Source: Chloroflexota bacterium (GTDB taxonomy: Bacteria; Chloroflexota; Dehalococcoidia; UBA2979). From it: a stretch of 64,000 nucleotides of DNA. The position numbers were made by a program, and so were the translations under genes. Under the pieces are notes generated by a model. The model was given only the letters and a program-made list of their open reading frames with translations, did no database searches and was not told the DNA's origin. Location: contig JAQCIU010000008.1 in assembly GCA_027593235.1 (NCBI GenBank), forward strand, positions 1-64,000, read 5' to 3'. Positions 13,958-41,998 of the stretch are shown piece by piece. The first letter of the stretch is position 1, and every line of letters starts with the position of its first letter.

Positions 13958-16365
<2,408 letters not shown>

Positions 16366-16423
16366 TCATCGGGGAGTAGATTCGTCGAGCCGCGGCAATT
16401 GCCGTGGCTCTGAGGAGGCCATT

Positions 16424-16717: not shown

Positions 16718-16742
16718 TCCACTTCACCTGCTGAGACCGACA

Positions 16743-16767
16743 AACGGCCGCCCGAAGGGCGGCCGTT
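16743..16767. terminator. Hairpin between convergent genes (probable bidirectional terminator)
   Basis: AACGGCCGCCC-GAA-GGGCGGCCGTT. Confidence 0.7.
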
Positions 16768-16792
16768 CTGCTGCGTGCTACGAGTCGACTGC

Positions 16793-17761
16793 CTACCCCA
16801 GCGCCACCGAGGCGGGATCGAATCCCGCCGCGCGCACCGCTTCGACGAGCGCTGCGCCCTCGGCGTCGCCCAGCTCGACCATCGGCGGCCGCACCGTCTT
16901 CCACGCCGCGTCCCCTCGCCCGGAGGCAAGTAGCCACTTCTGTCCCGGCACCGGCTGCTCGGTCTCCAGCGCGCGTCGGATCGCCGTCGCCAGAGTTTGG
17001 CGCTCCTCGGCGGACCCATCGTCCGCCACCCACGCGTCCCACACCGCGCGCGACCCCGAGGGATTCACGTTCGACGTCGCCGTGATGCACCCGGCCCCGC
17101 CTGCCTCGAGCCCCTGCAGCAGAAAGATCTCCGAGCCCGGGAAGATCGCCAGCGAAGGGAAGCGATCGATCATCGCCTCGGTGTTCGACCAGTCGCCGGA
17201 GGAATCCTTCACCCCCGCGATCGCCTCGCCGTAGCGCTCGACCAGCAGGTCCAGCAGCCCCAGCGTGACCGGCACGCCGGTCAACCGTGGGAAGTGATAG
17301 AGGAACACGCGCAGCTCGGGGTCAGCGACCCGCTCAATCACCGTGCCGAAGGCGCGCGCCAGCCCCTCGTCGCTCATCCCCTTGTAGTAGAACGGCGGCA
17401 GCATCAGCACCCGGTGCACCTCGTGCGACACCGCATGCTCCGTCAACCGCACCGAGTCCGGGAACGCGCAGCACCCTGTCCCGACCATCAGTCGGTCCGC
17501 CGGAATCCCGCCCGCGATCGCCGCATCGAGGAGCGCCATCCGTTCCTCGACCGAGAACGAATTCGCCTCGGAGGTCGTCCCGAACAGCGCGAGCCCGTGG
17601 CACCCCTGCTCCAGCACCCACCGCGCCTGCTCCAGGAACCGCGCCGCATCGACGCCGTACTCAGAATCCACCGGCGTCAGCACCGGCGACCACACCCCCA
17701 GCGCCGGCAACCCCTCGAGGCGTGCAACTGCGGCAGCGTGATCGGTCGTGGCGATGGTCAT
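16793..17761 (-). CDS. Dihydrodipicolinate synthase/N-acetylneuraminate lyase family aldolase
   Basis: GTTSEA, PPFYYK, LYHFP, GVKDSSGD. Confidence 0.9.
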   Translation of the reverse strand: MTIATTDHAAAVARLEGLPALGVWSPVLTPVDSEYGVDAARFLEQARWVLEQGCHGLALFGTTSEANSFSVEERMALLDAAIAGGIPADRLMVGTGCCAFPDSVRLTEHAVSHEVHRVLMLPPFYYKGMSDEGLARAFGTVIERVADPELRVFLYHFPRLTGVPVTLGLLDLLVERYGEAIAGVKDSSGDWSNTEAMIDRFPSLAIFPGSEIFLLQGLEAGGAGCITATSNVNPSGSRAVWDAWVADDGSAEERQTLATAIRRALETEQPVPGQKWLLASGRGDAAWKTVRPPMVELGDAEGAALVEAVRAAGFDPASVALG

Positions 17762-24502: not shown

Positions 24503-25729
24503 GGCGGATTCAAGCGGTCAGCGCAAGCAGCTCGGTGAGCTTCTCTGATGGTGTCATGGCGCCGAGCGTCTTGCGCGGGCGGTTGTTGAGACTGCGCGCA
24601 ATCCTGGCGAGGTCCTTGGCGGTCTGCACCGATAGGTCGGTTCCTTTGGGGAGGTACTGGCGCAGCAGGCCGTTGGTGTTCTCGTTGGAGCCGCGCTGCC
24701 ACGGGCTGTGCGGATCGCAGAAGTAGACCTGGATCCCGGTGTCGATGGTGAACTGCGCGTGGCGCAGCATCTCCTTGCCCTGATCCCAGGTGATCGTGCG
24801 GCGCAGCGTTTCAGGCAACGTCGTGATCGCCTGCTGCATCGCCTCGCTGACCTGCTCGGCTGAGCGGCCGTCGGGTAGGTGCAGCAGCATCAGGAAGCGC
24901 GTGGTGCGCTCGACCAGCGTGCCCACGGCCGAGCGGTTGCCCGCCCCCATGATGAGGTCACCCTCCCAGTGGCCAGGCACGGCGCGGTCTGCGACTTCGG
25001 CGGGACGCTCGGAGATCATCACCATGTTGGCGATCTTGCCGCGCGTCTCGAGGCGGCTACGCGGACGACGCCTGGCGCGTCCGCTGCGTAGACAGCGGTG
25101 CAGCTCGCGACGTAGTTCTCCGCGCCCCTGCACAAACAACGACAGGTAGATCGTCTCGTGGCTCACCCACATCATCGAATCGTGGGGGAACTCGAGCCGC
25201 AAGCGCAGCGCGATCGCTTCAGGTGACCACCACGCTTCCAGCCACGCCGTCACCTGCGTCGCGAGCGGCGGGTGGGCCAGCTTCGGCCGCTTTGGGCGTC
25301 GGGCCTGTGCTGCGGCACGGCCATGCGCGCGCCAGGCCTGATAGCCGGCCCGGCCACCATTCGCCGCGACCTCACGCGAGACCGTCGATGCGGCTCGTCC
25401 GATGCGCCTGGCAATCAGCGTGAAGCACTCCGCCCGCTCCAGACCGGCGCGGATCTCTTCGCGCTCGCCCAGCGATAGACGTGCCGGCGAGGGGTCCCAC
25501 GCCGTCGCGCCGCGTGCGACCGGCTCGCGCCTGAGCACGTTGCTGACGGCGTGTCTCGAACGCTCGACCATCGACCCGATCTCGCGCAGGGTGTGACCTC
25601 TGCCAGCGAGTCGCCTGACCTCCCGCTCCAGCTCCGGAGACAACTGCTTCCCCATCGACGCCCTCCTTGACGAGCTCCCCAAGAACCTTGGTGCTCACCA
25701 ACTCGTTGCGTCGATCCCTTGAACCCGCC
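24503..25729 (-). mobile_element. IS30-family insertion sequence
   Basis: Imperfect terminal IRs GGCGGATTCAAGCGGTCAGCGCAA / GGCGGGTTCAAGGGATCGACGCAA around a transposase; no target duplication evident. Confidence 0.9.
24510..25655 (-). CDS. IS30-family transposase
   Basis: SHETIY, GHWEGDL, TWDQGKEM, PWQRGSNENTNGLLRQY. Confidence 0.95.
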   Translation of the reverse strand: MGKQLSPELEREVRRLAGRGHTLREIGSMVERSRHAVSNVLRREPVARGATAWDPSPARLSLGEREEIRAGLERAECFTLIARRIGRAASTVSREVAANGGRAGYQAWRAHGRAAAQARRPKRPKLAHPPLATQVTAWLEAWWSPEAIALRLRLEFPHDSMMWVSHETIYLSLFVQGRGELRRELHRCLRSGRARRRPRSRLETRGKIANMVMISERPAEVADRAVPGHWEGDLIMGAGNRSAVGTLVERTTRFLMLLHLPDGRSAEQVSEAMQQAITTLPETLRRTITWDQGKEMLRHAQFTIDTGIQVYFCDPHSPWQRGSNENTNGLLRQYLPKGTDLSVQTAKDLARIARSLNNRPRKTLGAMTPSEKLTELLALTA

Positions 25730-30817: not shown

Positions 30818-31846
30818 CTAGCGCGGGGGGGCAACTCCGACGGAACCGGTCTCATGCCACTCGGCGAGATCCAGCAACGTGATGTTCTCGGGCGCTTTCC
30901 CGTTCATCCACGATTCGACGATCGCCAACGCGCGTCGCCCGAACTCCACCGTGTCCACATTGATCGACGACAGCGGCGGATCCATGAGCCCCACCGTGTA
31001 GCGAGAATCCGTGAAGGTCGCCACGGAACGGTCTCGCGGGATCGATTCGCCGCGCTCCCGCATGGCACGATTCAGCCCGGCGACGTGGCGGCTGTGCGCA
31101 AAGATCGCCGTCGCCGTCGATTCCGCTTCCAGGATCGTCGCCAGTGCCTCGTGCAGTTCCGTGGGTGAGAGATTGAATACCACCGGGCACCGCACCGGCT
31201 CCAGCCCCGCCTCTCGCGCCGCCGACTCAACGTACCGCCAGCGGTTGGACAGGCTCCCGATGTTCTCCAGGTACAGCACACGCTGGTGACCCAGGGCGCG
31301 CAACCGGCGCATCCCTTCCGTCAGTGGCGCCACCTGGGGCGTGATCGCGACCGGGATATCGCGCACCTCGCGCTCACGGCCGAACAGGCCCAGCGTCGGC
31401 ACACCGGCGCGCACGAAGGGCTCCAGATCCGGGCGCAGCGAGGCCCGCAGTCCGGAGAGCATCAACGCATCGACACGTCGCTCGTAGAGCCGCTGGACGT
31501 ATCGCCGCGAATGCTCGATGTCCCCGTCCGCATTGGCCACGATCACGGAATACCCAATCGCGTCCGCCGCAGCCGTCAGCCCGCTCAGGATGTCCAGGTA
31601 AACCGGACCATCCATCCGCTCGAAGAGCACACCGATCGTCAGCGTCCGCGACAACCGCAGGCTGCGCGCGCCGACGTTCGCGCGGTAGTTGAGCCGCTCG
31701 GCCGCCTCGCTGACGCGCTGGCTGAGATCCGGGCTGACCGGCCGGCTGCCGGTCAGCGCGCGCGAGGCGGTACTGATCGACACCCGCGCCTCAGCGGCCA
31801 CGTCTCGCAACGTCGCCACGTGCCGTTCATCGTTGTCGAGGGTCAT
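30818..31846 (-). CDS. LacI family transcriptional regulator
   Basis: TLRDVAAEARVSISTASRAL...LNYRAN HTH; PPLSSI. Confidence 0.93.
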   Translation of the reverse strand: MTLDNDERHVATLRDVAAEARVSISTASRALTGSRPVSPDLSQRVSEAAERLNYRANVGARSLRLSRTLTIGVLFERMDGPVYLDILSGLTAAADAIGYSVIVANADGDIEHSRRYVQRLYERRVDALMLSGLRASLRPDLEPFVRAGVPTLGLFGREREVRDIPVAITPQVAPLTEGMRRLRALGHQRVLYLENIGSLSNRWRYVESAAREAGLEPVRCPVVFNLSPTELHEALATILEAESTATAIFAHSRHVAGLNRAMRERGESIPRDRSVATFTDSRYTVGLMDPPLSSINVDTVEFGRRALAIVESWMNGKAPENITLLDLAEWHETGSVGVAPPR

Positions 31847-31994
31847 GATTCTGATTATCCCCTGACTGCCGCCCAAACGCGACGCCTCGAGCCCTCCGCC
31901 CGTCTCTTATAACGATCGCTGGCCGCCGAGCCGACGCTCGAAGCCGAACCTCCCCCTCACAACTCCCTACGCGATGACCCAACCCACGCCGTCC

Positions 31995-32031
31995 GGGACG
32001 GAGGTCACGTCCATCACCAGACGTTTGTCCC
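31995..32031. promoter_or_regulatory. Two tandem DosR/DevR-like boxes upstream of nosZ
   Basis: GGGAC-GGAG-GTCAC (31995-32008) and CAGAC-GTTT-GTCCC (32018-32031). Confidence 0.45.
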
Positions 32032-32126
32032 TTCGTTCACAGACCAATCCGATCAACGTTGAGTACGCAAGAAGTCGATCGGATCGAACAAGCCCGATCG
32101 GGTCGAAATGGGAACGGAAGGACCGG

Positions 32127-34076
32127 ATGAAGCGACTATTGCTGGTTGGACTCACCGCAATCGCGGCGTTGTCGCTCTATGCCTGCACTGGCGGGGATGA
32201 CGACAGCGGCGGATTGACTGGATCGGCGCAGGAAATCGCAAAGGACCGCGGCCTCACTGACGCGGACGTTCAAGCCGCCTTGAAGACATTCGTGCCGTCG
32301 GGTGGACGCGACGACTACGTCATGTTCGCGTCTGGCGGACACTCCGGTTCGGTCTTCGCGATCGGCATCCCGTCGATGCGTCTGCTGAAGAGCATCGCTG
32401 TCTTCACGCCGGAGGCGTGGCAGGGCTACGGCATCGGCGGGTCGGCCACCGAAGCGACCTTGGATGCCGGGAACTTCAATGACACGGAGATCCGCTGGGG
32501 TGACACGCACCACCCCGCACTGTCGGAAACTGCCGGCGACTACGACGGCCAGTTTTTGTTCATCAATGACAAGGCCGGCGCCCGCGTCGGGGTAATCGAT
32601 TTGAAGGACTTCGAGACGAAGCAGATCGTCAAAAACCCCTTCTCGACGATCGACCACGGCGGCACCTTCGTGACCCCGGACACCGAATGGGTGATCGAGG
32701 GCCCGCAGTACGCCCACCCGATCGGTGGCGCCTACGCCCCGTTGGACCAGTACAACGAGGTGTACCGCGGCTACATCATGTTCTGGAAGTTCGACCGGGA
32801 GGCTGGCCGCATCGACGAGAGTCGGTCCTTCGGCATGGAGCTCCCGCCGTACTGGCAGGACCTCTGTGACGTCGGCAAGCTCGACTCCGCCGGATGGCTC
32901 TTCTGTGGCTCGCTCAACTCCGAGCGCGCGACCGGTGGCATCGAGAGCGGCAACCCGCCCTTCGAGGTTGGCGTCTCCCAGAACGACACGGACTTCCTCC
33001 ACGTGATCAACTGGGAGAAGGCTGCGGAAATCGCCTCAAACGCGGCGAACACCGAGACCTTCAACGGCATGCCCTACATCACCACGGACACCGCCATCGC
33101 TGAAGACCTGCTCTTCCTGGTGCCGGAACCGAAGAGCCCTCACGGTTCGGACGTCACCCCGGATGGCAAGTTCGTGATCGTCTCTGGCAAGTTGGACCCG
33201 ACGATTACGGGCTACTCGTTCGCGAAGATTCAGGCTGCGATCAGTGCCGGCTCCGGTGACCCGGATCCGTACGGCATCCGCATCCTCCCCTTCGACGAGG
33301 TGATGGAAGCACAGATCGAAGTTGGCCTTGGGCCGCTACACACCCAGTTCGCTGGTAACGGCATCGCCTACACCAGCCTCTTCCTGGACAACGCGGTCTC
33401 CAAGTGGCGCTTCGGCGACACCTGGGAGCTGATCTCGACCACGCCCACCCAATACAACGTCGGCCACATCGCGGCCGCCGAGGGTGACACCGTGTCTCCG
33501 GACGGCAACTACCTGGTTTCGCTCAACAAATGGGCCACGGACCGCTTCACCACGGTTGGGCCGCTCTTGCCGCAGAACCTCCAGCTACTCGACATTTCGA
33601 TCGAGACGCCGCAGGTGATCTACGACATGGCCATGGGTGTCGGTGAACCGCACTACGCGCAGATCATCAAGGCCGACAAGCTGCAGGCCTGGGAGGTCTA
33701 CCCGGAGATCGGCTGGGATCCGCACACCGGTGCGGTCGACCCGAACGCTGCGCTCCCTGGACAGGAACGCGTGGAGCGCAACGGCAACAACGTCGAGATC
33801 TGGATGACCGCGATTCGGAGTCACTTCACTCCGGAGAACGTCGAGATCAAGGCTGGTGACAAGGTCACCTGGCACATCACGAACATCGAGCGGGCCTACG
33901 ACGCCACGCACGGGTTCGCGCTGCCGGGACACAACATCACCTTGAGCCTTGAGCCCGGTGAAGCGGCGACATTCGAGTTCGAAGCCAAGAACTCTGGTGT
34001 CTTCAACTTCTACTGCACCGAGTTCTGCTCGGCACTGCACCTGGAGATGATGGGACACCTGCTGATCGAGCCATAG
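32127..34076 (+). CDS. nosZ: Clade II (Sec-dependent, lipoprotein) nitrous-oxide reductase
   Basis: Lipobox LYA-C, no twin-Arg; CuZ His motifs DTHHP, DHGG, PHG, GPLH, VGH, EPH; CuA THG...CTEFCSALHLEM. Confidence 0.97.
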   Translation: MKRLLLVGLTAIAALSLYACTGGDDDSGGLTGSAQEIAKDRGLTDADVQAALKTFVPSGGRDDYVMFASGGHSGSVFAIGIPSMRLLKSIAVFTPEAWQGYGIGGSATEATLDAGNFNDTEIRWGDTHHPALSETAGDYDGQFLFINDKAGARVGVIDLKDFETKQIVKNPFSTIDHGGTFVTPDTEWVIEGPQYAHPIGGAYAPLDQYNEVYRGYIMFWKFDREAGRIDESRSFGMELPPYWQDLCDVGKLDSAGWLFCGSLNSERATGGIESGNPPFEVGVSQNDTDFLHVINWEKAAEIASNAANTETFNGMPYITTDTAIAEDLLFLVPEPKSPHGSDVTPDGKFVIVSGKLDPTITGYSFAKIQAAISAGSGDPDPYGIRILPFDEVMEAQIEVGLGPLHTQFAGNGIAYTSLFLDNAVSKWRFGDTWELISTTPTQYNVGHIAAAEGDTVSPDGNYLVSLNKWATDRFTTVGPLLPQNLQLLDISIETPQVIYDMAMGVGEPHYAQIIKADKLQAWEVYPEIGWDPHTGAVDPNAALPGQERVERNGNNVEIWMTAIRSHFTPENVEIKAGDKVTWHITNIERAYDATHGFALPGHNITLSLEPGEAATFEFEAKNSGVFNFYCTEFCSALHLEMMGHLLIEP

Positions 34077-34100
34077 CGAAAGGACCCACGAACAACAGCA

Positions 34101-34220
34101 GGATTCGACTGCGCTCGAATCGAGGCCTGGGGGCGAGGGCTTCGGCTCTCTCCCCCTCCCACCCATGGTGGGAGCCGGGCCGAGCGCCCCGGAGGCGGAA
34201 CAGCCCCCCGCCTCCGGGGC
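34101..34220 (+). other. Cluster of stable hairpins in the nosZ-nosB intergenic region
   Basis: GATTCGA..TCGAATC, GAGGGC-TTCG-GCTCTC, CTCCCACC-CAT-GGTGGGAG, GCCCCGGAGGCGG..CCGCCTCCGGGGC. Confidence 0.55.
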
Positions 34221-34240
34221 CACAGGAAAGAGAGAGCGAT

Positions 34241-34936
34241 ATGGACATGACGGACGTCCGAAGTGGACTCGCCCGCCCACTTGAGGGCCTGCGAACAGCG
34301 GCCGGCACGCTCCGTCGGTCCGCCTGGGCTCCAACCAGACGCTGGATCGCGGTGTACGGGGACCGCTGGTTCCCGATCGCTGCCGCCCTGCTCATCACTG
34401 CATCGATCTTCTTCCCGTACTGGCGCCTGAAGCTCAACGCACCGCAGTACCCGCGGGGCCTGGAGGCGAGCATCGGGATCCGCGACGTCGCCGGTGATGT
34501 CAGCGAAATCGACGGCCTCAACCACTACATAGGCATGCGCCCGCTCGCCGAGGGCGGGAAGCTGGAACTCAGCATCTCCATCTACGCCATTCCCGCGATG
34601 GCCGGCCTTGCCGCACTTGCCGCGATCCGCCGGCGTCGGTTCTGGCTCTTCGCGCTTCCGGCCATCGCCTACCCGGTGGTCTTCACCGCGGATCTCTACT
34701 ACTGGTTGTATGACTTCGGACACACTCTTGATCCAACTGCGGCACTCTCGAACGCCTTCGATGAATTCACACCCACCCTCATCGGACCGGGTCGCGTCGG
34801 CCAATTCACCACGTTCTCCTTCTACGAGATCGGCTTTGGCATGGCCTTCCTCGGTTCGGTGCTCCTCGTCATCTCCACTGTCGTGCGCGTTCGACGCGAG
34901 CGCGCCGCCGACCGTCTCACCATGGCAGGCGCCTGA
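34241..34936 (+). CDS. nosB: NosB-like polytopic membrane protein of clade II nos clusters
   Basis: PYWRLKLNAPQYPRGL, EIDGLNHYIGM, YDFGHTLDP; about 4 TM; right after nosZ. Confidence 0.82.
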   Translation: MDMTDVRSGLARPLEGLRTAAGTLRRSAWAPTRRWIAVYGDRWFPIAAALLITASIFFPYWRLKLNAPQYPRGLEASIGIRDVAGDVSEIDGLNHYIGMRPLAEGGKLELSISIYAIPAMAGLAALAAIRRRRFWLFALPAIAYPVVFTADLYYWLYDFGHTLDPTAALSNAFDEFTPTLIGPGRVGQFTTFSFYEIGFGMAFLGSVLLVISTVVRVRRERAADRLTMAGA

Positions 34937-34938
34937 CC

Positions 34939-36675
34939 GTGATCGCCGCGCTCGTCGCGGTCATCCTGCTCGTCTCAGCTGACGGGCCCTACACCTCGAT
35001 CCCCGAGGCGCTGGCCGTTGCCCAGCCCGGCGACACGATCCTCGTTCACGGCGGCGTGCACCCCGCGCTGCTGATCGACAAGTCCGTCACGATCCGCGGC
35101 GAAGCCGGCGCCGTCATCGATGGCGGCGGTCTTGGCGACGTCGTGACGATCGACGCGCCCGATGTCACCCTCGAGGGCTTCGAACTCCGCCGTTCCGGGC
35201 GCGTGCTCTACCAGGAGCACGCCGGCGTCACCGTGCTACAGCCACGCGTCACCGTCCGCGACAACGACATCCACGACGTACTGTTCGGCGTGTTCGTGAA
35301 GCGCGGAGACCACGCGCTGATCCAGGGCAACCACGTCACCGGTTACGACTACCTGGATGTCCACTCGCGCGGCGATGGGTTGCGCGCCTGGTACAGCGTC
35401 GGCGCCCGCTTCATCGAGAATCGCGTTGAACGCACCAGGGATGTGATCCTCTGGTTCTCCAACGACGCCGTGGTCAAGGACAACGTCATCTCCGATGGGC
35501 GCTACGGCCTCCACTTTATGTACGACGACGGCATGGTCGTCAGCGGGAACCACGTCCACGACAACTCCGTCGGCATGTTCCTCATGTACTCGTCGAATGT
35601 CGCGGTGCGCGACAACTTGATCACGGACAACTCCGGGCCCAGCGGGTACGGCATCGGCCTCAAAGAGGTCGCCAACCTGGACGTCACCGGCAACGTCTTG
35701 CTGCGCAATCGCATCGGAGTCTCGTTCGACACTGTCCCGCATGGGCAGGACGCGTTCGCGACATTCACGGGCAACCTCGTCGCGTTCAACCTCGCCGGCA
35801 TGTCCTTCCAGCCCGACACGAAGCGCGTCGAACTGCTGACCAATAGCTTCGACCGCAATGGCACGCAAATCGAAATCCGTGGCGGTGGCGATCTTGCTGG
35901 GAACGTCTGGAACGCAGACCGTGGCAACTACTGGAGCGACTACGTCGGCTACGACGCGGATCGCGACGGCATCGGCGACCTCGCCTACGAGCCGCAGTCG
36001 CTCTTTGAATCGTTGCGTGACGAGGATCCCGTCCTCGCGCTCTTCAACTTCAGCCCCGCGGCACTCGCCGTAGACTTCGCCGCCCGCGCCGTCCCGAACC
36101 TCCGGCCCAGTCCCAAGGTGGTGGACGCCGCCCCGCTCACCGATAACCTCGCTCCACCCTGGTTCGAAGCCGGACGGAGCGCTCGCCTGCCGCTGGCGAC
36201 CGTGACCATCGTGTTGCTCACACTTGGCGTTGTGGTCACCCGCGGTATGTCGCGCGGATTCGAGGCCGGCACGACGCGTGCACGAGATGAGGATGCTTCG
36301 ATGGCGATGGATGACGTGAGCGCCATCCTCAGCGCGCGCGGGCTCACCAAACGCTACGGCGATCGCACCGTTCTCAACGCCCTCGATCTCACCGTCCGGC
36401 GTGGTGAAGCGGTCGCGCTCTGGGGTGGCAACGGCGCCGGCAAGACCACCGCCATCCGCTGCATCGTCGGCGTCGTTCGCCATGACGGTGATGTCTACGT
36501 CGATGGCGCCCACCTCGCCGAGGAGCCGCGCGCCGTCCGCCGTGCAATCGGTTACGTCCCCCAGGATCAGCAGCTCACCGATCTGCCGGCTCGCGAGCTG
36601 CTCTCCTTCTTCGGCGCGCTTCGCGGCGTCCCCGCTGACGAGGTGGGTGCAACCGCGATCCTCGTCGGCATCTAG
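34939..36675 (+). CDS. nosD: NosD fused through a TM helix to the N-terminal half of a NosF ABC ATPase; ends at an in-frame TAG
   Basis: Beta-helix with RGDG..WYS, GRYGLHFMY, GNYWSDY.GYD...DGIGD; then TM; then Walker A GGNGAGKTT and IGYVPQ. Confidence 0.9.
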   Translation: MIAALVAVILLVSADGPYTSIPEALAVAQPGDTILVHGGVHPALLIDKSVTIRGEAGAVIDGGGLGDVVTIDAPDVTLEGFELRRSGRVLYQEHAGVTVLQPRVTVRDNDIHDVLFGVFVKRGDHALIQGNHVTGYDYLDVHSRGDGLRAWYSVGARFIENRVERTRDVILWFSNDAVVKDNVISDGRYGLHFMYDDGMVVSGNHVHDNSVGMFLMYSSNVAVRDNLITDNSGPSGYGIGLKEVANLDVTGNVLLRNRIGVSFDTVPHGQDAFATFTGNLVAFNLAGMSFQPDTKRVELLTNSFDRNGTQIEIRGGGDLAGNVWNADRGNYWSDYVGYDADRDGIGDLAYEPQSLFESLRDEDPVLALFNFSPAALAVDFAARAVPNLRPSPKVVDAAPLTDNLAPPWFEAGRSARLPLATVTIVLLTLGVVVTRGMSRGFEAGTTRARDEDASMAMDDVSAILSARGLTKRYGDRTVLNALDLTVRRGEAVALWGGNGAGKTTAIRCIVGVVRHDGDVYVDGAHLAEEPRAVRRAIGYVPQDQQLTDLPARELLSFFGALRGVPADEVGATAILVGI

Positions 36676-37179
36676 GATCACCTGCAGAAGCGCCCAAACG
36701 AACTCTCCGGCGGGCTCCGCCAGCGGCTCGCGCTGGCCATCGCCCTCCTCGGCGATCCGCCGCTCCTGCTCCTCGACGAACCGACCGCCAACCTCGACGC
36801 CGCGACACGCGAATCGATCTTCGCGCTGCTGGACGCGAAGCGAAGCCGCGGCACCACCGTCGTCTTCACGACCCACCGCGCGGACGAGGTGATCGCCTTC
36901 GCCGATCGCGTCATCACGCTGCAAGACGGTCGCGTCATCGCGGAGGAGGCCGCGGACGCCTTCGCCCGCAACCTGGACGGTGCGACCAACAACCTGCTGA
37001 TCCGCGTCGCCGAGGACGATGTCACCCGCGCGCACGCGCTGCTGGCGGCGGCGGGGCTCAACGTCACCGCTCGCGCCGGCTGGCTCACCGTCCGCGACGC
37101 ATCCCCCGATCGGCCGCTCCACGTCCTCTTCATCGAGGGCATCGCCGTCCTCGAGTCAGCAATCGGGAGCCAACGATGA
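36301..37179 (+). pseudogene. nosF: NosF ABC ATPase domain split by TAG at 36673-36675 (nonsense mutation, sequencing error or readthrough)
   Basis: Same frame continues after TAG with ELSGGLRQRL, LLLDEPTANLD, TTH to TGA at 37179, which overlaps the nosY start. Confidence 0.8.
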
Positions 37180-38003
37180 GCCCGCATACGGTCGGCCTGA
37201 TCGCCCGCCTGGAGTTCCAGGCAGCGCTCCGCAACTGGTGGCTCGTCCTTTACGCCGCCATCTTCACCGTCCTCGCTGGTGGCGTGTCCTATCTCTCCGC
37301 CGGCGGACTCTCCGGCCTCGAGGCCGGTCAATTCGGGCGCACCGCCGCCGCGCTCACCAACGTCGTGCTGCTCGTCGTCCCGCTCTTCGGCCTGATCGCG
37401 GGCGCCATCTCACTCGCCGCGGATCGGGAACGTGGGCTCCTCGCCTACTACCTGGCGCAACCGATCTCCGCGGCGGAGCTGTTCTGGGGCAAATACCTCG
37501 GAACCGCCGCGGCGCTTCTCGTGGGGCTCGCTGTCGGCTTCGCGGCGGCCGCGCTCGCACTCGCCCGAGGTGGGGCGCTCGATGCCATCGACCTCGTGTG
37601 GCTGATCGCGCTCTCCGCGCTGCTGATGCTCGCGGCGTACTCGGTCGGGACCCTGATTTCCGTGCTCTCGCGCCGCAGCGCCATGGCCCTCGGCGTTGCC
37701 GTCTTCGCCTGGGTCACATTGCTCTTCCTCGGCGACCTGGGCCTGATGGCTACGGTCGTCGCGACACGCCTCGATCTCCGGATCGTCATCGGTATCGCGC
37801 TGCTCAACCCGGCCGAGGCCTTCAAGATCGCCAGCATCGATCAGGTCGGCAGCTCGCTCGACGCGCTCGGCCCCGCTGGCAACTACCTCGTCACCAACCT
37901 CGGGCGTGGACTGCGCCCGCTGCTCCTCGCGCTGCTCGCCTCCTGGATCGTGATCCCCTCGCTGCTCGCGATGCTGCGCTTTGAGCGCGACGACGCGATC
38001 TAA
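37176..38003 (+). CDS. nosY: NosY ABC transporter permease
   Basis: Multi-TM; DRERGLL..YLAQPIS...GKY, LLNP; ATGA overlap with nosF. Confidence 0.9.
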   Translation: MSPHTVGLIARLEFQAALRNWWLVLYAAIFTVLAGGVSYLSAGGLSGLEAGQFGRTAAALTNVVLLVVPLFGLIAGAISLAADRERGLLAYYLAQPISAAELFWGKYLGTAAALLVGLAVGFAAAALALARGGALDAIDLVWLIALSALLMLAAYSVGTLISVLSRRSAMALGVAVFAWVTLLFLGDLGLMATVVATRLDLRIVIGIALLNPAEAFKIASIDQVGSSLDALGPAGNYLVTNLGRGLRPLLLALLASWIVIPSLLAMLRFERDDAI

Positions 38004-38016
38004 GGTGGCCCGAACG

Positions 38017-38442
38017 ATGCGCGCCATCGCTGTCACCTGTGCCCTCGTGGTTCTGATGTCGCTGACCGCCGCCTGCAACGACGAGGCGCTGAACGAGTTT
38101 GGCGCCGCCGGCGCCGGTCAATCCTCGGTCACCGTTCAGCTCTACGACGGGTGGATCGGCAGCCCGGAAACGGATCAGGCGATCGGACCGGGGCTCCCGC
38201 TCCAGGTCACACTCCACCCCCACAACGACGTCACGATCCACGTCATCAACATGGGCGCCGCAGTCCACGCATTCGCCCTCTACGCCGACGAGGCCGGTAC
38301 CGAGCTCCTGGTGCAATCGCAGGCGCTGCCGCCCGGGGCGACCGAGGAATTACGGTTCCACTTTCACGACGCGCAGATCGCCTACTTCTTCGATGACGGC
38401 CATCGCAAGGACATGCGGGGAGAGTTCCATGTCTACGAGTAA
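38017..38442 (+). CDS. Cupredoxin-like lipoprotein lacking the type-1 copper Cys
   Basis: Lipobox LTAA-C; VTIHVIN...HAF, LPPG, YFFDDGHRKDMRGEFHV. Confidence 0.6.
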   Translation: MRAIAVTCALVVLMSLTAACNDEALNEFGAAGAGQSSVTVQLYDGWIGSPETDQAIGPGLPLQVTLHPHNDVTIHVINMGAAVHAFALYADEAGTELLVQSQALPPGATEELRFHFHDAQIAYFFDDGHRKDMRGEFHVYE

Positions 38443-39067
38443 CGTCGACTGGCTTCGGTGGACGACGATCGCGGTGTTCGTGGTCGCAATCGCCATGGCT
38501 GCAGTCATCGCCTGGGATCGCCTGGGGGGGACGTCCGCGGACCCGCACATCTTCGCCAGCGTGGTCTACGACCCGGCCGAAACCATGCCGGACTTCACGC
38601 TGACCGCTCAGGACGGCACGCCATTCACGCTCAGCGAGCAGCGCGGCGAAGTCGTCGCCCTCTATTTCGGCTACACCCACTGCCCCGATGTCTGCCCGCT
38701 CACCCTCAGCAACCTCGCCCGCGTCCGCAACGGCCTGCCCGAGGACCTCCGCGAGGACCTCCAAGTCGTCATGGTCACAGTCGATCCCACCCGCGACACC
38801 GTCGAGGTGATGGCCGACTACGTCCCGGTCTTCGACGCCAGCTTCATCGGCATCAGCGGTACGCCGGCGGAGGTGGAGCGGGTCCTCGGCAGCTGGCGCA
38901 TCCCCGTCGAACTGGGCGAACCGGACGCCGCGGGCAACTACGCCGTCGGGCACCCCGCCTACACGTTGATCCTCGATCGTGAGGGTCGGCGCCTGCTCAA
39001 GATGAACCAGATCATCACCTTCGAGCAGATGGCGGCGGACCTGCGCGCGGTCCTCGAACAGAGCTAG
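38429..39067 (+). CDS. SCO1/SenC family copper chaperone
   Basis: N-terminal TM; FGYTHCPDVCP, VTVDP.RD, distal His (YAVGH). Confidence 0.93.
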   Translation: MSTSNVDWLRWTTIAVFVVAIAMAAVIAWDRLGGTSADPHIFASVVYDPAETMPDFTLTAQDGTPFTLSEQRGEVVALYFGYTHCPDVCPLTLSNLARVRNGLPEDLREDLQVVMVTVDPTRDTVEVMADYVPVFDASFIGISGTPAEVERVLGSWRIPVELGEPDAAGNYAVGHPAYTLILDREGRRLLKMNQIITFEQMAADLRAVLEQS

Positions 39068-39127
39068 CGGCAGCGGGCTCCCTCGCTTGCCCATCACGCG
39101 AATCGCACGCCGCTTCCGACACGCAAA

Positions 39128-39152
39128 GACGCCGGCCCTCTCGGGCCGGCGT
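39128..39152. terminator. Hairpin between convergent SCO and cytochrome c genes
   Basis: GACGCCGGCCC-TCTC-GGGCCGGCGTC. Confidence 0.65.
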
Positions 39153-39179
39153 CGCCGATTCCACGCGGAATCTGTTGAG

Positions 39180-39602
39180 CTACGGCGCCGTGCGAATGAA
39201 CTGGACCAATGCGTCGATCTCCGCCGTGCTCAGCCCCGTGTCGCTCCAGGCCGGCATCACCGTCCCGGCCCGCCCGTTTGTGATCGTGTCGCGGTAGAAG
39301 TCATCGCTCTCCGTCAGCACGTCAGGAGTCAGCGGGAGCCCGAGCCCCGTGATCACTTGCCGATCCGCACCGTGGCACGCCGAGCAGTTCAGCGTGTAGA
39401 ACTCCTGGGCGGTCTTTCCGCCAAAGAGCACTCCATCATCACCGCCGCCGGCCGTCTCCGTTGCCGCAGCCGTGGCCGCGGTGGTCTCGGTCGCCGCGGC
39501 AGTGGCATCGCCGTCGTCGTCGCCGCCACCGCAGGCCGCAAACGCCACCGTACCGATCACCGCCAGCCCCACGACTGCAATCTTCACGCTCGGGAACCGC
39601 AT
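39180..39602 (-). CDS. Lipoprotein monoheme class I cytochrome c
   Basis: Lipobox FAA-C, Ala/Thr linker, CSACH, distal Met VMPAW. Confidence 0.92.
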   Translation of the reverse strand: MRFPSVKIAVVGLAVIGTVAFAACGGGDDDGDATAAATETTAATAAATETAGGGDDGVLFGGKTAQEFYTLNCSACHGADRQVITGLGLPLTPDVLTESDDFYRDTITNGRAGTVMPAWSDTGLSTAEIDALVQFIRTAP

Positions 39603-39635
39603 CGATCTGCTCCTTTTGTATCTCGCACGATCGTC

Positions 39636-39695
39636 GGTCCAATCGTCCCCTCGATCTATGGACCAAATGGACCTCCTCCTCGGGACCTTCGCCCC
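39636..39695. promoter_or_regulatory. Three tandem DosR/DevR-like boxes in the divergent cytochrome c / regulator promoter
   Basis: GGTCC-AATC-GTCCC (39636), GGACC-AAAT-GGACC (39660), GGGAC-CTTC-GCCCC (39682); 22-24 bp spacing. Confidence 0.45.
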
Positions 39696-39785
39696 TCCCG
39701 GCTGCTCGGCGATCGCGCCTCGACCCGCGTTAACAAGCAGCCAACGAAACAGCGCCAGAGTGGTTGAAGGAACCGAAGGGGTCGC

Positions 39786-40469
39786 ATGGCAAGCATCCTC
39801 GTCGTCGAAGATGACCCCACGATCCGCGATGTCGTGGTCTATCAACTCCAGGCGGCCGGCCACGATCTCCACACCGCCGACGACGGCGTCGACGCCGTCG
39901 ATCAGTTCCGCGCGAACAAGCCCGACCTGGTCATCCTCGATCTGATGCTTCCCCGACTTCCCGGCCTCGACGTGTTGCGCATTCTGCGTCGGGAGTCGAC
40001 CGCGCCGGTGATCGTGACCAGCGCGCGCACACGAGAGGCGGACAAGCTCGCGGGCTTCGAACTGGGCGCGGATGACTACGTGACCAAGCCATTCGGCATC
40101 CGCGAGTTACTCGCCCGCGTAGAGGCCAACCTCAAGCGGACCTTGCCGCCACGCAGAACCGGCGAGCGAGCGCCATCGTCGATCGACGTCGATGACGGCA
40201 GCCACACCGTGAGGCGCCACGGCGAGCGGGTCGCGCTCACACCGAAAGAGTTCGAATTACTCAGCTTCCTGGTGCGGCACCCGAACCAGGTCTGCTCCCG
40301 GGACCTGATCTTGGAATCCGCCTGGGGCTATGCCTACCCGGGCGAGACCCGCACCGTCGATGTGCACATGCACTGGCTCCGCCAGAAGCTGGAGGACAAC
40401 CCTGTCAGCCCGGCGCACCTGATCACGGTCCGCAACTACGGATACATGTTCGTTCCGGACCCCGCGTGA
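39786..40469 (+). CDS. OmpR/PhoB family response regulator (no adjacent kinase)
   Basis: LVVEDD, LDLMLP, GADDYVTKPF, LTPKEFELL, RTVDVH. Confidence 0.95.
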   Translation: MASILVVEDDPTIRDVVVYQLQAAGHDLHTADDGVDAVDQFRANKPDLVILDLMLPRLPGLDVLRILRRESTAPVIVTSARTREADKLAGFELGADDYVTKPFGIRELLARVEANLKRTLPPRRTGERAPSSIDVDDGSHTVRRHGERVALTPKEFELLSFLVRHPNQVCSRDLILESAWGYAYPGETRTVDVHMHWLRQKLEDNPVSPAHLITVRNYGYMFVPDPA

Positions 40470-40698
40470 TGATCGATCCGAGCGATGCATTTCGTTTGTT
40501 CGGATCAGCGCTGGTGGCTTGTGCGGCGATCGACTTCGTCGGGTACGATGGTTTCAACGGATCGAGAGATCTGTTACCTCAGTTCCACTCCCGGGTCGTC
40601 TCATCCGAACACCACGTCGAGCAGCTGAGCATCAAGCGTTTGCCGCAAGTGCGGCGGACAAAGTAGCCGGCTATGTGCCGGCGTGGAGTTCAAGTTTT

Positions 40699-41055
40699 AT
40701 GTCCCAGAGAATCTACGTGGGGAACTTCCCCTACTCGGCCACTGAAGAAGAGGTCGAGAAGCTGTTCGGTCAGTACGGCGAGGTCATCTCGTGCGCGCTG
40801 CCGACCGACCGCGAGACCGGTCGCCCGCGCGGCTTCGGTTTCGTTGAAATGTCCAACGAGGATGCCGCGAAGGCCATCCAGGCCCTGGACGGCACCGACT
40901 TCGGTGGCCGCTCCCTGGCCGTTTCCGAGGCTCGCCCCCGTGAAGACCGTGGCGGTTCCCGCGGCGGCGGCGGTGGTGGTGGCTACGGCGGCGGCGGCGG
41001 TGGTGGTGGTTACGGCGGCGGCGGCGGCGGTGGTGGTCGCGACCGCCGTTACTAG
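40699..41055 (+). CDS. RRM RNA-binding protein with Gly-rich tail
   Basis: RNP2 IYVGNF, RNP1 RGFGFVEM, GGGGGGGY repeats. Confidence 0.95.
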   Translation: MSQRIYVGNFPYSATEEEVEKLFGQYGEVISCALPTDRETGRPRGFGFVEMSNEDAAKAIQALDGTDFGGRSLAVSEARPREDRGGSRGGGGGGGYGGGGGGGGYGGGGGGGGRDRRY

Positions 41056-41164
41056 GCCCGCAGGGGCGTAGCCCCAGCACACGCACCCCTTCCGATCACG
41101 CCGAGCGTGGCATTCGCCACATCAGGATGGCTTCGGCACCAACGATCGACCGAGGATTGCAACG

Positions 41165-41193
41165 ACAGAGCCCGGCTTCGGCCGGGCTCTGTT
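41165..41193. terminator. Hairpin terminator between RRM gene and tRNA
   Basis: ACAGAGCCCGGC-TTCG-GCCGGGCTCTGT. Confidence 0.75.
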
Positions 41194-41257
41194 GCGTTCA
41201 GTGGTGCTGCGTTTAGTGGCGTCGGGTTCGACCACGACCGCACTCGGCCGGGGCCCA

Positions 41258-41295
41258 GCTAGCTGGTGAAAGAGACCGCTAGCTGGTGAAAGAGA
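41258..41295. repeat. 18-bp tandem direct repeat next to the tRNA-Arg 3' end
   Basis: GCTAGCTGGTGAAAGAGA at 41258-41275 and 41278-41295. Confidence 0.7.
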
Positions 41296-41296
41296 G

Positions 41297-41372
41297 TGGT
41301 ACGCCGGGAAGGATTTGAACCCTCGACCCTCAGATCCGAAGTCTGATGCTCTATCCCCTGAGCTACCGGCGC
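41297..41372 (-). tRNA. tRNA-Arg(TCG)
   Basis: GCGCCGGTAGCTCAGGGGATAGAGCA-TCAGA-CTTCGGA-TCTGA...GGTTCAAATCC...GTACCA. Confidence 0.95.
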
Positions 41373-41497
41373 ACGTTGAACGAACCGGGATCGGTCACAC
41401 GACCGAACTACCCCGCGCGATCACAGAAGAGGCTACGGGGGCGACGCCGGTCGCGCGAGCGCCCCGCCGACGTCGGCGTGTCGAGGACCAACCGGAT

Positions 41498-41998
41498 CTA
41501 TTGAGCGGGAGCGTCGGACGTCCGGCGCGTTGCGCGCAGGATCGCAGTGACCAGCAGGCCAATCACGGCGCCGCCGCCGAAGCCGAGGGCCGCCCCAAGG
41601 ATCAGCAGCGCGCCGAGCTGGACATCCAGCTCGATCAACGAGCCGACGGCAAACGTTCCGGCAGCTCCCAGGGCCATCCACGCGGCGCCGACCACGGCCG
41701 GCAACAGGGTGCCGATCGCGAGGCCTGGACCGATCGATCGCCCGCCGCGATTCAGGCGTCGGGCACCGACGACGGCCGAGGCGAGTGCGGGTGCCAGCCC
41801 GAAGCCAAACAGCGTGGCCATGACCAACGCCGCTTCGCCGGCGTCCAGAGTCTCGGTTCCCCCGCTGGCGAGTCCAAGCGCCGCGCCGAGCAGCGCGCCG
41901 ATTGGCGTCATGAAGATGCCGCGTCGGAGACCAACCCCAATCGCGACCCCGACGGTTCCGCCCTCGACGCTGCCGTGGGGTGGTGCCTGGGCGATCAC
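41498..41998 (-). CDS. Hypothetical Gly/Ala-rich membrane protein
   Basis: About 4 hydrophobic segments; GTGA overlap with the DUF192 gene. Confidence 0.65.
   Translation of the reverse strand: MIAQAPPHGSVEGGTVGVAIGVGLRRGIFMTPIGALLGAALGLASGGTETLDAGEAALVMATLFGFGLAPALASAVVGARRLNRGGRSIGPGLAIGTLLPAVVGAAWMALGAAGTFAVGSLIELDVQLGALLILGAALGFGGGAVIGLLVTAILRATRRTSDAPAQ

What the first reader, a model, noticed from the sequence alone, without database searches (positions are those of the whole stretch)
31995..40469. Unusual all-membrane-tethered clade II N2O-respiration module
Seen: nosZ carries a lipoprotein signal and no C-terminal cytochrome domain. It is followed by nosB, a nosD-TM-nosF fusion, nosY, a cupredoxin-like lipoprotein and SCO, plus a convergent lipoprotein cytochrome c. 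Known: clade II clusters normally use NosL for copper delivery and often NosG/H or Rieske/cytochrome b for electron supply; none of these, nor nosR, is present here. Inference: a minimal monoderm-adapted N2O sink in which every exported part is membrane anchored, with an alternative copper-delivery and electron-donor set, in a probable Dehalococcoidia-like host.
Basis: partly seen in the sequence, partly recalled or inferred. Interest (0 to 1): 0.8.

Follow-up and report, generated by a model that had tools for sequence, protein, structure and literature searches.

The report
Nitrous-oxide reductase operon, NosL swapped, nosF broken
This is a membrane-anchored nitrous-oxide reductase gene cluster of a kind common in Chloroflexota, unusual in that the usual copper chaperone NosL is replaced by a rare cysteine-less cupredoxin lipoprotein plus a dedicated SCO protein, and in that an essential maturation gene carries a premature stop codon in this strain.

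Summary
The genes are there as described: lipoprotein clade II NosZ without a cytochrome domain, nosB, a nosD-TM-nosF fusion, nosY, a cupredoxin-like lipoprotein, SCO1 and a convergent lipoprotein cytochrome c. NosL, NosR (FMN_bind) and NosH (NrfD) were not found anywhere in the 89.66%-complete genome.

A syntenic relative (L091) has GAG (Glu) there. TAG is the genome's commonest stop, no suppressor tRNA was found, and an independent metagenome holds the same allele. N2O reduction is probably lost or crippled in this strain.

Most of the 'unusual' traits are ordinary in this NosZ lineage. A lipobox on NosZ occurs in 52 of 80 related loci and the NosD-NosF fusion in 21 of 64. A NosC-type cytochrome c is common next to nos genes, and a bc complex lies elsewhere in the genome.

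What is distinctive is copper delivery. NosL follows nosY in 49 of 58 related loci. Here and in L091 that place holds a rare lipoprotein family with a cupredoxin fold, the type-1 Cys replaced by an invariant Asp and extra invariant His, followed by a second SCO. One database protein fuses the two domain types.

Verdict: new variant of a known kind, moderate interest.

The parts
30818..31876 (-). LacI-family regulator, divergent from nosZ. It is a neighbour whose link to nos is unproven.
   Evidence: Pfam LacI plus Peripla_BP_3. Conserved upstream of nosZ in L091 at 64% identity. The adjacent TPP enzyme is also conserved at 90%, so this may be plain synteny.
32124..34076 (+). nosZ: clade II (Sec-type) nitrous-oxide reductase with a lipoprotein signal and no C-terminal cytochrome c domain.
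   Evidence: TIGR04246 788.5 bits against a cut-off of 625. N-terminus MKRLLLVGLTAIAALSLYAC. All lineage-invariant His (129, 130, 178, 293, 340, 406, 448, 510) and the CuA residues H596, C631, C635, H639 and M642 are kept.
34241..34936 (+). nosB-like integral membrane protein.
   Evidence: No Pfam or NCBIfam hit. tblastn homologues lie between nosZ and nosD in nearly all related loci. Hydrophobic segments seen.
34939..36672 (+). nosD (exported beta-helix), one TM helix (residues 415-433), and the N-terminal half of the nosF ATPase (Walker A, Q-loop).
   Evidence: TIGR04247 365 bits; PF00005 covers profile positions 1-71 of 137 only. TM helix.
36673..36675 (+). In-frame TAG stop inside the nosF ATPase domain.
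   Evidence: L091 has GAG (Glu) at this codon. None of 60 aligned orthologues has a stop there. An X3 contig covers 36433-36899 with 0 differences.
36676..37179 (+). C-terminal half of nosF (ABC signature LSGG, Walker B, H-loop, C-terminal domain), in the same frame after the stop. The first in-frame start codon comes only at 36889.
   Evidence: It is 82% identical to the matching part of the intact 745-aa-type fusion in L091.
37176..38003 (+). nosY, ABC-2 type permease. Its start overlaps the nosF stop by 4 nt.
   Evidence: PF12679 76.9 bits; six or more hydrophobic segments.
38017..38442 (+). Cys-less cupredoxin-like lipoprotein, in the place that NosL holds in relatives. A TTG start at 37981 is also possible.
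   Evidence: Lipobox LTAAC. hhalign against classical nos-linked cupredoxins gives 97.6% probability, with the type-1 Cys aligned to invariant Asp126. AlphaFold2 mean pLDDT 85.2; Foldseek top hits are cupredoxin-like domain proteins, auracyanin and azurin.
38429..39067 (+). SCO1/SenC-type copper chaperone / thiol-disulfide protein with an N-terminal TM anchor. It overlaps the preceding gene by 14 nt.
   Evidence: PF02630 131.7 bits; CPDVC motif. A second SCO with PCuAC and CtaG lies on C35.
39128..39153 (.). Perfect 11-bp GC-rich hairpin between the convergent stops of SCO and the cytochrome c gene.
   Evidence: The consensus terminator scan did not score it, because it has no T run.
39180..39602 (-). 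Monohaem class I cytochrome c lipoprotein (NosC-like) with an Ala/Thr/Glu-rich tether, convergent with the operon.
   Evidence: PF13442 and PF00034. Lipobox AFAAC and CSACH motif. 79% identical in the same position and orientation in L091.

Best explanation
The region is a clade II nos operon of the lipoprotein-NosZ lineage shared by Chloroflexota and Actinomycetota: nosZ-nosB-nosD~F-nosY-cupredoxin-like lipoprotein-sco, closed by a hairpin and a convergent NosC-like lipoprotein cytochrome c.

Inferred electron path: quinol, then the bc-type complex on contig C74, then the tethered cytochrome c, then CuA of NosZ.

Inferred copper path: in this small sub-lineage nosL has been replaced, at the same position after nosY, by two genes. 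One is a rare lipoprotein with a cupredoxin fold whose type-1 Cys is an invariant Asp and which carries extra invariant His and Asp (H69, D71, H84, H115, H117, D118, D126). The other is a dedicated SCO1 paralogue. The pair most likely captures copper at the outer face of the membrane. It would hand copper to NosZ CuA through SCO, as PCuAC or YtkA does with Sco for cytochrome oxidase, and perhaps to NosD for CuZ.

Shown: in this genome the fused nosD~F gene carries a GAG-to-TAG nonsense change. It removes the ABC signature, Walker B and H-loop from the only NosF.

Inferred: NosDFY cannot hydrolyse ATP, NosZ would lack CuZ, and the strain has recently lost most or all N2O reduction. Close relatives keep an intact module.
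For: Identity of the genes.

Conserved module:
- L091 has the same order and orientation from the TPP enzyme and LacI through nosZ (86%), nosB (77%), nosD (83%), nosF (74-82%), nosY (85%), the lipoprotein (51%) and SCO (72%) to the convergent cytochrome c (79%).
- Both flanks are conserved too.

NosL replaced:
- A local NosL HMM finds NosL in 49 of 58 related loci that have at least 1 kb after nosY.
- The 9 without are 8 Gemmatimonadota loci and L091.
- There is no hit in the six frames of the whole genome, and no Pfam NosL.

The lipoprotein:
- 13 homologues in 5.8 billion clusters; 19 clusters at E<=1e-3 among 1.84 billion representatives.
- Apart from G000 itself, the class sample (400 genomes) gave only weak hits of at most 41 bits, and the phylum sample (400 genomes) gave no hit at E<=1e-8.
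- Cupredoxin fold.
- The Cys ligand is Asp in all 13 and all 15 aligned members.

Link to SCO:
- The two genes overlap by 14 nt.
- P0135 is a natural fusion of this domain with SCO1 (PF02630, 87.3 bits).
- The genome's other SCO sits with PCuAC and CtaG on C35.
- By equal contig lengths, three further homologues share contigs with 744-745 aa NosD~F proteins.

The stop:
- Seen; GAG in L091.
- Stop usage is TAG 1514, TGA 872, TAA 346.
- 0 of 56 tRNAs has a CUA anticodon.
- An X3 contig from another study covers 36433-36899 with 0 differences.
- There is no second nosF, nosD or nosY; other ABC ATPases are at most 37% identical.

The event is recent:
- The part after the stop is 82% identical to L091.
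- The strain differences listed for X4 and X5 in nosZ, nosDF and nosY are 14 synonymous to 4 non-synonymous and 15 to 2.

From papers:
- Loss of nosD, nosY or nosF gives enzyme without CuZ (PMC13685413, passage read).
- In Geobacillus thermodenitrificans NosL is replaced by a YtkA-domain protein (PMC13068155, passage read).
Against: - No copper binding, partner or expression data exist for the lipoprotein or for this SCO.
- The contexts known for the lipoprotein family are few and closely related: the window, L091, and three contigs inferred only from equal lengths.
- SCO proteins usually serve cytochrome oxidase.
- L036 has both NosL and SCO after nosY, so SCO need not replace NosL.
- All other genes of the operon are intact, and the TAG allele is present in two samples of different years. 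That would also fit a tolerated or partly read-through stop.
- The differences shown for X4 and X5 were truncated. I could not see whether those slightly divergent strains carry TAG.
- No intact allele above 90% identity was found, so the stop is not known to be confined to one clone.
- The genome is 89.66% complete, so absences are not proven.
Confidence: 0.6

Rival explanations
1. The module works in this strain. Either the TAG is leaky, with low-level read-through giving enough full-length NosD~F for a maturation machine needed only in small amounts, or NosZ is matured without NosF.
For: All other nos genes are intact and the NosZ metal ligands are complete. The allele occurs unchanged in samples of two studies. 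The frame after the stop is undamaged.
Against: TAG is the commonest stop in the genome (1514 of 2732 counted). There is no tRNA with a CUA anticodon among 56 and no start codon until 36889. nosF loss gives CuZ-less enzyme in studied systems (PMC13685413, passage read). An undamaged downstream frame is equally expected from a recent mutation.
Confidence: 0.2
2. The cupredoxin-like lipoprotein, SCO and cytochrome c serve other copper enzymes, the aa3 oxidase on C66 or NirK on C61, and lie next to nos only by synteny.
For: SCO is classically a CuA chaperone of cytochrome oxidase. The genome has one COX1 and one NirK. A paper suggests that Nos-type copper relays may serve NirK in Parageobacillus (PMC13068155, passage read).
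Against: A separate SCO-PCuAC-CtaG cluster exists on C35. The lipoprotein gene starts 13 nt after nosY and overlaps sco by 14 nt. The same arrangement is kept in L091. It occupies the exact NosL position. Three homologues appear to share contigs with NosD~F.
Confidence: 0.1
3. The cupredoxin-like lipoprotein is an electron carrier to NosZ, an alternative donor, rather than a copper-handling protein.
For: It is homologous (hhalign 97.6%) to classical lipoprotein cupredoxins. These stand directly upstream of nosZ in five of the six other nos clusters from relatives, and just after nosY in the sixth, L009.
Against: The type-1 Cys ligand is Asp in every member aligned (13 of 13; 15 of 15). The C-terminal His and Met ligands are not kept in the wider family. 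A cytochrome c donor is already present.
Confidence: 0.07
4. The TAG is an assembly or sequencing error.
For: The genome is a metagenome-assembled draft of 78 contigs.
Against: Contigs of an independent run of another study and year match 36433-36899 without any difference. A 96-aa ORF that starts after the stop was called on another 28-kb contig (P0152).
Confidence: 0.03

Closest known systems
Clade II nos clusters of Chloroflexota and Acidimicrobiia MAGs (nosZ-nosB-nosD-nosF-nosY-nosL-cytochrome c)
   Same: Same NosZ lineage (54-68% identity) and the same core order. Lipobox on NosZ in 52 of 80 loci. NosD-NosF fusion in 21 of 64. Monohaem cytochrome c next to the cluster. No nosR or nosGH.
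   Different: NosL is present after nosY in 49 of 58 of them. Here it is replaced by the Cys-less cupredoxin-like lipoprotein plus SCO. The cytochrome c is convergent instead of co-directional. nosF carries a stop.
Gram-positive nos clusters of Bacillus azotoformans and Geobacillus thermodenitrificans (PMC3475470, section 16 read; PMC13068155, passage read)
   Same: Membrane-associated N2O reduction. Lipoprotein cytochrome c NosC. A four-TM protein after nosZ. NosD with a C-terminal TM helix. No nosGH. A senC/SCO1 paralogue next to one nos cluster. NosL replaced by another lipoprotein copper protein (YtkA domain) in Geobacillus. nosL is absent from most thermophilic Bacillota nos clusters (PMC11388526, passage read).
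   Different: NosZ itself was not predicted to be a lipoprotein there. The replacement chaperone there is a YtkA domain, not a cupredoxin. NosD and NosF are separate proteins.
Sco with PCuAC (or Bacillus Sco with YtkA/CtaK), the CuA assembly pair
   Same: A membrane-tethered Sco sits next to a small exported copper-binding beta-sandwich protein. The genome's own SCO-PCuAC-CtaG cluster on C35 shows the canonical form.
   Different: The small partner has no PCuAC or YtkA match at E<=1 in any of 13 members. It has a cupredoxin fold with a His/Asp-rich motif set. The presumed target is NosZ rather than CoxB.
NosL (PF05573)
   Same: A lipoprotein encoded directly after nosY; presumed copper supply to NosDFY and NosZ.
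   Different: No sequence similarity (no PF05573 hit in 13 members) and a different fold.
Type-1 cupredoxins (auracyanin, azurin) and Cupredoxin_1-type domains (PDB 4hcf, FtrB 8vuk)
   Same: The fold: Foldseek probability 1.00, target-normalised TM-score up to 0.80. The N-terminal His ligand is kept.
   Different: Cys ligand replaced by invariant Asp. Extra invariant H69, D71, H115, H117 and D118. That FtrB-like domains also lack the Cys is my recollection; no call tested it.

Membership tests
Clade II (Sec-type) NosZ | Match to the Sec-dependent NosZ model above its curated cut-off | tested here: met
   TIGR04246 788.5 bits against 625. The Tat-type model TIGR04244 scores 344 against 625, and clade III L-NosZ 196 against 700.
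Clade II (Sec-type) NosZ | Sec-type rather than twin-arginine signal directly before the hydrophobic core | tested here: met
   MKRLLLVGLTAIAALSLYAC has no RR next to the h-region and is conserved in L091. No signal-peptide predictor was available.
Clade II (Sec-type) NosZ | nosB directly downstream, no nosR | tested here: met
   The NosB homologue at 34241-34936 is conserved by position. No FMN_bind domain in the genome.
Clade II (Sec-type) NosZ | CuZ and CuA ligand residues | tested here: met
   Eight lineage-invariant His and the CuA set H, C, C, H, M are all present. I did not map them onto a solved structure.
NosDFY maturation ABC system | NosD beta-helix protein | tested here: met
   TIGR04247 365.1 bits against 300.
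NosDFY maturation ABC system | Complete NosF ATPase (Walker A, Q-loop, signature, Walker B, H-loop in one polypeptide) | tested here: not met
   An in-frame TAG at 36673-36675 separates Walker A and the Q-loop from the signature, Walker B and H-loop.
NosDFY maturation ABC system | NosY ABC-2 permease | tested here: met
   PF12679 76.9 bits.
NosL | PF05573 domain encoded in the cluster or the genome | tested here: not met
   No match in the genome. The local HMM of 30 NosL sequences finds nothing in six frames at E<=10, yet finds NosL in 49 of 58 related loci. Genome 89.66% complete.
SCO1/SenC | PF02630 domain with CxxxC and a membrane anchor | tested here: met
   131.7 bits against 22.8; CPDVC; TM helix at residues 12-30.
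Type-1 (blue) copper cupredoxin | Cupredoxin fold | tested here: met
   hhalign 97.6%. AlphaFold2 pLDDT 85.2 and Foldseek hits to cupredoxins. The Pfam PF13473 score for this protein is below the cut-off (14.5 against 27).
Type-1 (blue) copper cupredoxin | His, Cys, His, Met/Gln ligand set | tested here: not met
   Cys aligns with invariant Asp126. The C-terminal His and Met are not conserved in the wider family.
PCuAC / YtkA copper chaperones | PF04314 or PF13115 domain | tested here: not met
   No such hit at E<=1 in any of 13 family members.
NosGH / Rieske-cytochrome b electron module inside the nos cluster | NrfD-type NosH, or Rieske and cytochrome b genes in the cluster | tested here: not met
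   No NrfD in the genome. Cytochrome b, Rieske and cytochrome c genes lie on C74, not in the cluster.

The most novel reading that the evidence does not exclude
The Cys-less cupredoxin-like lipoproteins form a new class of extracytoplasmic copper chaperone. Their marks are the motif set H-x-D, N-x-G-x3-H, H-F-H-D and an Asp in place of the type-1 Cys. With a dedicated Sco partner they would replace NosL and supply copper to both centres of a membrane-tethered NosZ. One natural protein fuses the two.
Probability: 0.3. Interest if true: 0.65.

Novelty: new variant of a known kind. Interest (0 to 1): 0.45.

Why it matters
How clade II N2O reductases obtain their twelve copper ions outside the well-studied proteobacterial NosL-NosDFY route is poorly known. 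nosZ counts in metagenomes are nevertheless widely read as N2O-sink capacity.

This locus offers two things. The first is a concrete, testable candidate for a NosL-independent copper route: a rare cupredoxin-derived lipoprotein working with a dedicated Sco. The second is a caution. A MAG with a perfect nosZ can still carry a broken maturation gene, so scoring nosZ alone would overstate its N2O-reducing potential.

Tried and rejected
- Complex prediction of the NosD exported domain with the mature lipoprotein gave no verdict (median ipSAE 0.30, mark 0.32). I count it neither for nor against binding.
- The PDB sequence search with the family profile gave only chance matches.
- The class-level genome search with alignment A4 was uninformative. 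The profile included the SCO domain of the fusion protein P0135, so almost all of the 60 matching genomes matched SCO.
- The few cupredoxin-part hits (L092, L096, L097) are ordinary Cys-containing cupredoxins away from nos genes.
- Read laying: X4 and X5 cover the TAG position, but the table of differences was cut ('244 more are not shown'). Whether those strains carry the stop is unknown.
- Two searches for an intact near-identical nosF allele found none above 83% identity. They found only the 96-aa ORF after the stop.
- The sigma-70 promoter scan found 0 sites (0.7 expected). The terminator scan found 4 (3.3 expected), none at the operon end.
- Rfam found no RNA element in 31000-41500 apart from a tRNA.
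- A Tat signal for NosZ was considered, because the longest ORF (from 31974) holds 'TRRLSL'. I rejected it: that motif lies 36 residues before the hydrophobic core and is not kept in L091.
- TAG recoding (pyrrolysine or a suppressor) was considered and rejected on stop usage and the tRNA set.
- A paper search for NosD-NosF fusion phrases returned only 'nosDFY'-type word matches.

Full report
**What is in the sequence**

Between 32124 and 39602 the window holds, on the plus strand:
- nosZ (32124-34076)
- a nosB-like membrane gene (34241-34936)
- a nosD gene that runs through one transmembrane helix into an ABC ATPase (34939-37179)
- nosY (37176-38003)
- a small lipoprotein gene (38017-38442)
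- an SCO1/SenC gene (38429-39067)

On the minus strand, convergent with these, is a monohaem cytochrome c lipoprotein gene (39180-39602).

- NosZ scores 788.5 bits on the Sec-type clade II model TIGR04246 (cut-off 625). It scores far below the cut-offs of the Tat-type and clade III models.
- It keeps every His that is invariant in its lineage, and the CuA ligands.
- Its N-terminus MKRLLLVGLTAIAALSLYAC ends in a lipobox, and the protein ends with the CuA domain.
- NosD has an N-terminal hydrophobic segment and a C-terminal helix before the ATPase. The lipoprotein and the cytochrome c have lipoboxes, and SCO has an N-terminal helix.
- The genes are tightly packed. nosY overlaps nosF by 4 nt and sco overlaps the lipoprotein gene by 14 nt.
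- A perfect 11-bp hairpin (39128-39153) lies between the two convergent stops.

I do not count it as part of the module.

The nosD-nosF frame contains an in-frame TAG at 36673-36675.
- Walker A (GGNGAGKTT) and the Q-loop lie before it.
- The signature LSGG, Walker B (LLLLDEPT) and the H-loop lie after it in the same frame.
- There is no in-frame start codon until 36889.
- In an alignment with 60 orthologues the column holds ordinary residues (A 12, T 11, E 9, G 6, S 6, D 4, Q 3 and others) and no stop.
- The close relative L091 reads GAG (Glu) in the context VGIEDHL. The change is therefore a single G-to-T substitution.

TAG is not recoded here.
- It is the commonest stop of long high-GC3 ORFs in the genome (1514, against TGA 872 and TAA 346).
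- None of the 56 tRNAs found has a CUA anticodon.

The stop is not an assembly slip.
- Contigs of a run from another study and year (X3) cover 36433-36899 with no difference.
- A 96-aa ORF that begins after the stop was called on another 28-kb contig.

There is no backup. No second nosF, nosD, nosY or nosB exists in the assembly, and other ABC ATPases are at most 37% identical. In studied systems, loss of nosD, nosY or nosF yields enzyme without CuZ (PMC13685413, passage read).

The event looks recent.
- The 167 codons after the stop are 82% identical to L091.
- The strain differences shown for X4 and X5 in nosZ, nosDF and nosY are mostly synonymous: 14 to 4 and 15 to 2 (only the listed subset of differences could be scored).

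I could not see whether X4 and X5 carry the stop, and I found no intact allele above 83% identity.

**How unusual is the architecture**

I collected 80 loci with related NosZ from species-representative genomes (54-85% identity), one metagenome locus (L091), and seven loci from the genome's own relatives.
- The order nosZ-nosB-nosD-nosF-nosY is nearly universal.
- A lipobox-like motif precedes mature NosZ in 52 of 80 loci. These include nearly all loci titled Chloroflexota or Acidimicrobiia (regular-expression test only).
- NosD and NosF are one open frame in 21 of 64 loci where both were found.
- Monohaem cytochromes c stand next to the cluster in many loci, usually after nosL. The window's cytochrome c resembles those in seven of them at 26-34% identity.
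- None of these clusters has nosR, or nosGH-like genes, among the ORFs scanned.

Anchoring, the fusion, the missing NosGH/NosR and a cytochrome c donor are therefore the norm for this lineage. They echo what is described for Bacillus (PMC3475470, section 16 read): lipoprotein NosC, a four-TM protein after nosZ, a C-terminal helix on NosD, a senC paralogue beside a nos cluster, and membrane-bound activity. Haloarchaeal NosZ has also been predicted to be a Tat lipoprotein (PMC8301774, passages read). Chloroflexota MAGs with clade II nosZ plus nosB, no norBC and sometimes nirK are reported (PMC11409646, passages read), and so are Dehalococcoidia MAGs with clade II nosZ (PMC10982107, passages read).

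**What is distinctive: copper delivery**

A local HMM built from 30 NosL sequences finds NosL in 49 of 58 loci that have at least 1 kb after nosY, almost always directly after nosY. The nine without are eight Gemmatimonadota loci and L091. The same HMM and Pfam PF05573 find nothing in the whole genome (completeness 89.66%).

In the window and in L091, the place after nosY is taken by the small lipoprotein and SCO. L091 is a syntenic region of a related organism.
- The flanking TPP enzyme and a hydrolase are 90% identical.
- It keeps the whole module with an intact 745-aa-type NosD~F.

The lipoprotein belongs to a rare family.
- 13 proteins in the 5.8-billion-cluster collection.
- 19 clusters at E<=1e-3 among 1.84 billion representatives.
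- No strong hit besides the genome itself in 400 genomes of the class and 400 of the phylum.

It has a cupredoxin fold.
- 9 of 13 members touch PF13473 at E<=1, this one at 14.5 bits, below the cut-off.
- The nearest language-model clusters are sulfocyanin and cupredoxin families.
- A profile comparison with the classical lipoprotein cupredoxins of relatives gives 97.6% probability.
- An AlphaFold2 model (mean pLDDT 85.2) matches cupredoxin-like domain proteins, auracyanin and azurin.

In the profile alignment the N-terminal His ligand is kept. The Cys ligand is an Asp that is invariant in all aligned members. The C-terminal His and Met are not kept in the wider family. H69, D71, H115, H117 and D118 are additional invariant residues. 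That excludes a blue-copper electron carrier and suggests a remodelled His/Asp metal site.

Three observations tie the lipoprotein to SCO:
- the overlapping genes;
- a database protein (P0135, 337 aa) that fuses this domain to an SCO1 domain;
- the genome's other SCO, which sits in a canonical SCO-PCuAC-CtaG cluster on C35. The nos-linked SCO is thus a second, dedicated copy with its own small partner.

This is an inference, since contexts could not be read.

Replacement of NosL by another lipoprotein copper protein has a precedent in Geobacillus thermodenitrificans, where it is a YtkA domain (PMC13068155, passage read). nosL is also missing from most thermophilic Bacillota nos clusters (PMC11388526, passage read). 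In my NosZ tree (FastTree, midpoint root, supports not read) the window, L011 and L091 form a clade next to a Caldilineaceae-type clade. Two loci of that clade carry NosL-YtkA fusions.

**Rest of the genome**
- One haem-copper oxidase only (C66), so no Nor was seen.
- NirK on C61 at 348.5 bits, above its cut-off.
- No nirS, no narG above the cut-off, no NrfD.
- A cytochrome b / Rieske / cytochrome c cluster on C74.

The likely electron path is therefore quinol, bc complex, tethered cytochrome c, CuA.

**Host**

The nearest named NosZ locus (85%) is titled a Dehalococcoidia MAG. NosZ occurs in 7 of 40 relatives searched: 5 of 24 in the same family and 0 of 3 in the same genus.

Six of those seven have a very different nos type, with NosZ about 50% identical. 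Where my gene calls resolve them, the order is classical lipoprotein cupredoxin, nosZ, nosL, nosB fused to nosD, nosF, nosY. L007 has nosB and nosD as separate ORFs with no NosL call, no NosL ORF was called in L010, and in L009 the cupredoxin lies after nosY. The nos region has a lower G+C (0.62-0.65) than the window's usual 0.67-0.69.

**Verdict**

The interpretation overstates how unusual the anchoring and the electron supply are, and it assumes a working sink. The real points of interest are a candidate NosL-independent copper route, built from a cupredoxin-derived lipoprotein and a dedicated Sco, and a recent nonsense mutation in the only nosF.

Function of the lipoprotein is inferred, not shown. 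The single complex prediction gave no verdict. Supplementary files of the papers were closed and may hold cluster maps that bear on novelty.

Noticed in passing
whole genome G000: TAG is the commonest stop codon of long high-GC3 ORFs (1514, against TGA 872 and TAA 346) in a genome of about 68% G+C. TGA usually dominates at such G+C; that expectation is recalled, not tested.
   Followed up: partly
L004, L006, L007, L008, L009, L010 (relatives of the same family and class): A second nos cluster type occurs in the same taxonomic family, with NosZ only about 50% identical to the window's. Its order is classical Cys-containing lipoprotein cupredoxin, nosZ, nosL, nosB fused to nosD (about 675 aa), nosF, nosY, and no cytochrome c was seen among the ORFs scanned. 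L007 has nosB and nosD as separate ORFs, and in L009 the cupredoxin lies after nosY.
   Followed up: partly
protein P0135 (337 aa): A natural fusion of the Cys-less cupredoxin-like domain with an SCO1/SenC domain.
   Followed up: partly
L014 8104-9321 and L051 17274-18539: NosL fused to YtkA-like copper-chaperone domains, after nosY, in the Caldilineaceae-type sister clade of the window's NosZ.
   Followed up: no
L077 14685-16814 and L027 about 14136-14773: nosF is also disrupted in two other MAGs. L077 (Poribacteria) has an insertion of about 1.3 kb between the ATPase halves. L027 has a frameshift.
   Followed up: no
window 24510-25682 (-) and 41300-41372 (-): An IS30-family transposase lies 6.4 kb upstream of the nos operon and a tRNA gene 1.7 kb downstream of it. 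The nos genes have a lower G+C (0.62-0.65) than their surroundings. This hints at acquisition, although L091 shares both flanks.
   Followed up: partly
window 32047-32084: An 11-nt inverted repeat (91% complementary, 16 nt apart) lies in the 247-nt gap between the LacI-family gene and nosZ. It could be an operator or a leader structure.
   Followed up: no
window 40519-41055 (+): An RRM-domain RNA-binding protein with a long Gly-rich C-terminal tail, just after the response regulator.
   Followed up: no
G000 C26:32184-32351 and the tRNA set: A Rieske-domain match has one in-frame TGA, and the genome has a tRNA-Sec (anticodon TCA).
   Followed up: no
L036 about 15953-17416: A Chloroflexota MAG has nosY-nosL-SCO1, so SCO is added to a nos cluster that keeps NosL.
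   Followed up: partly
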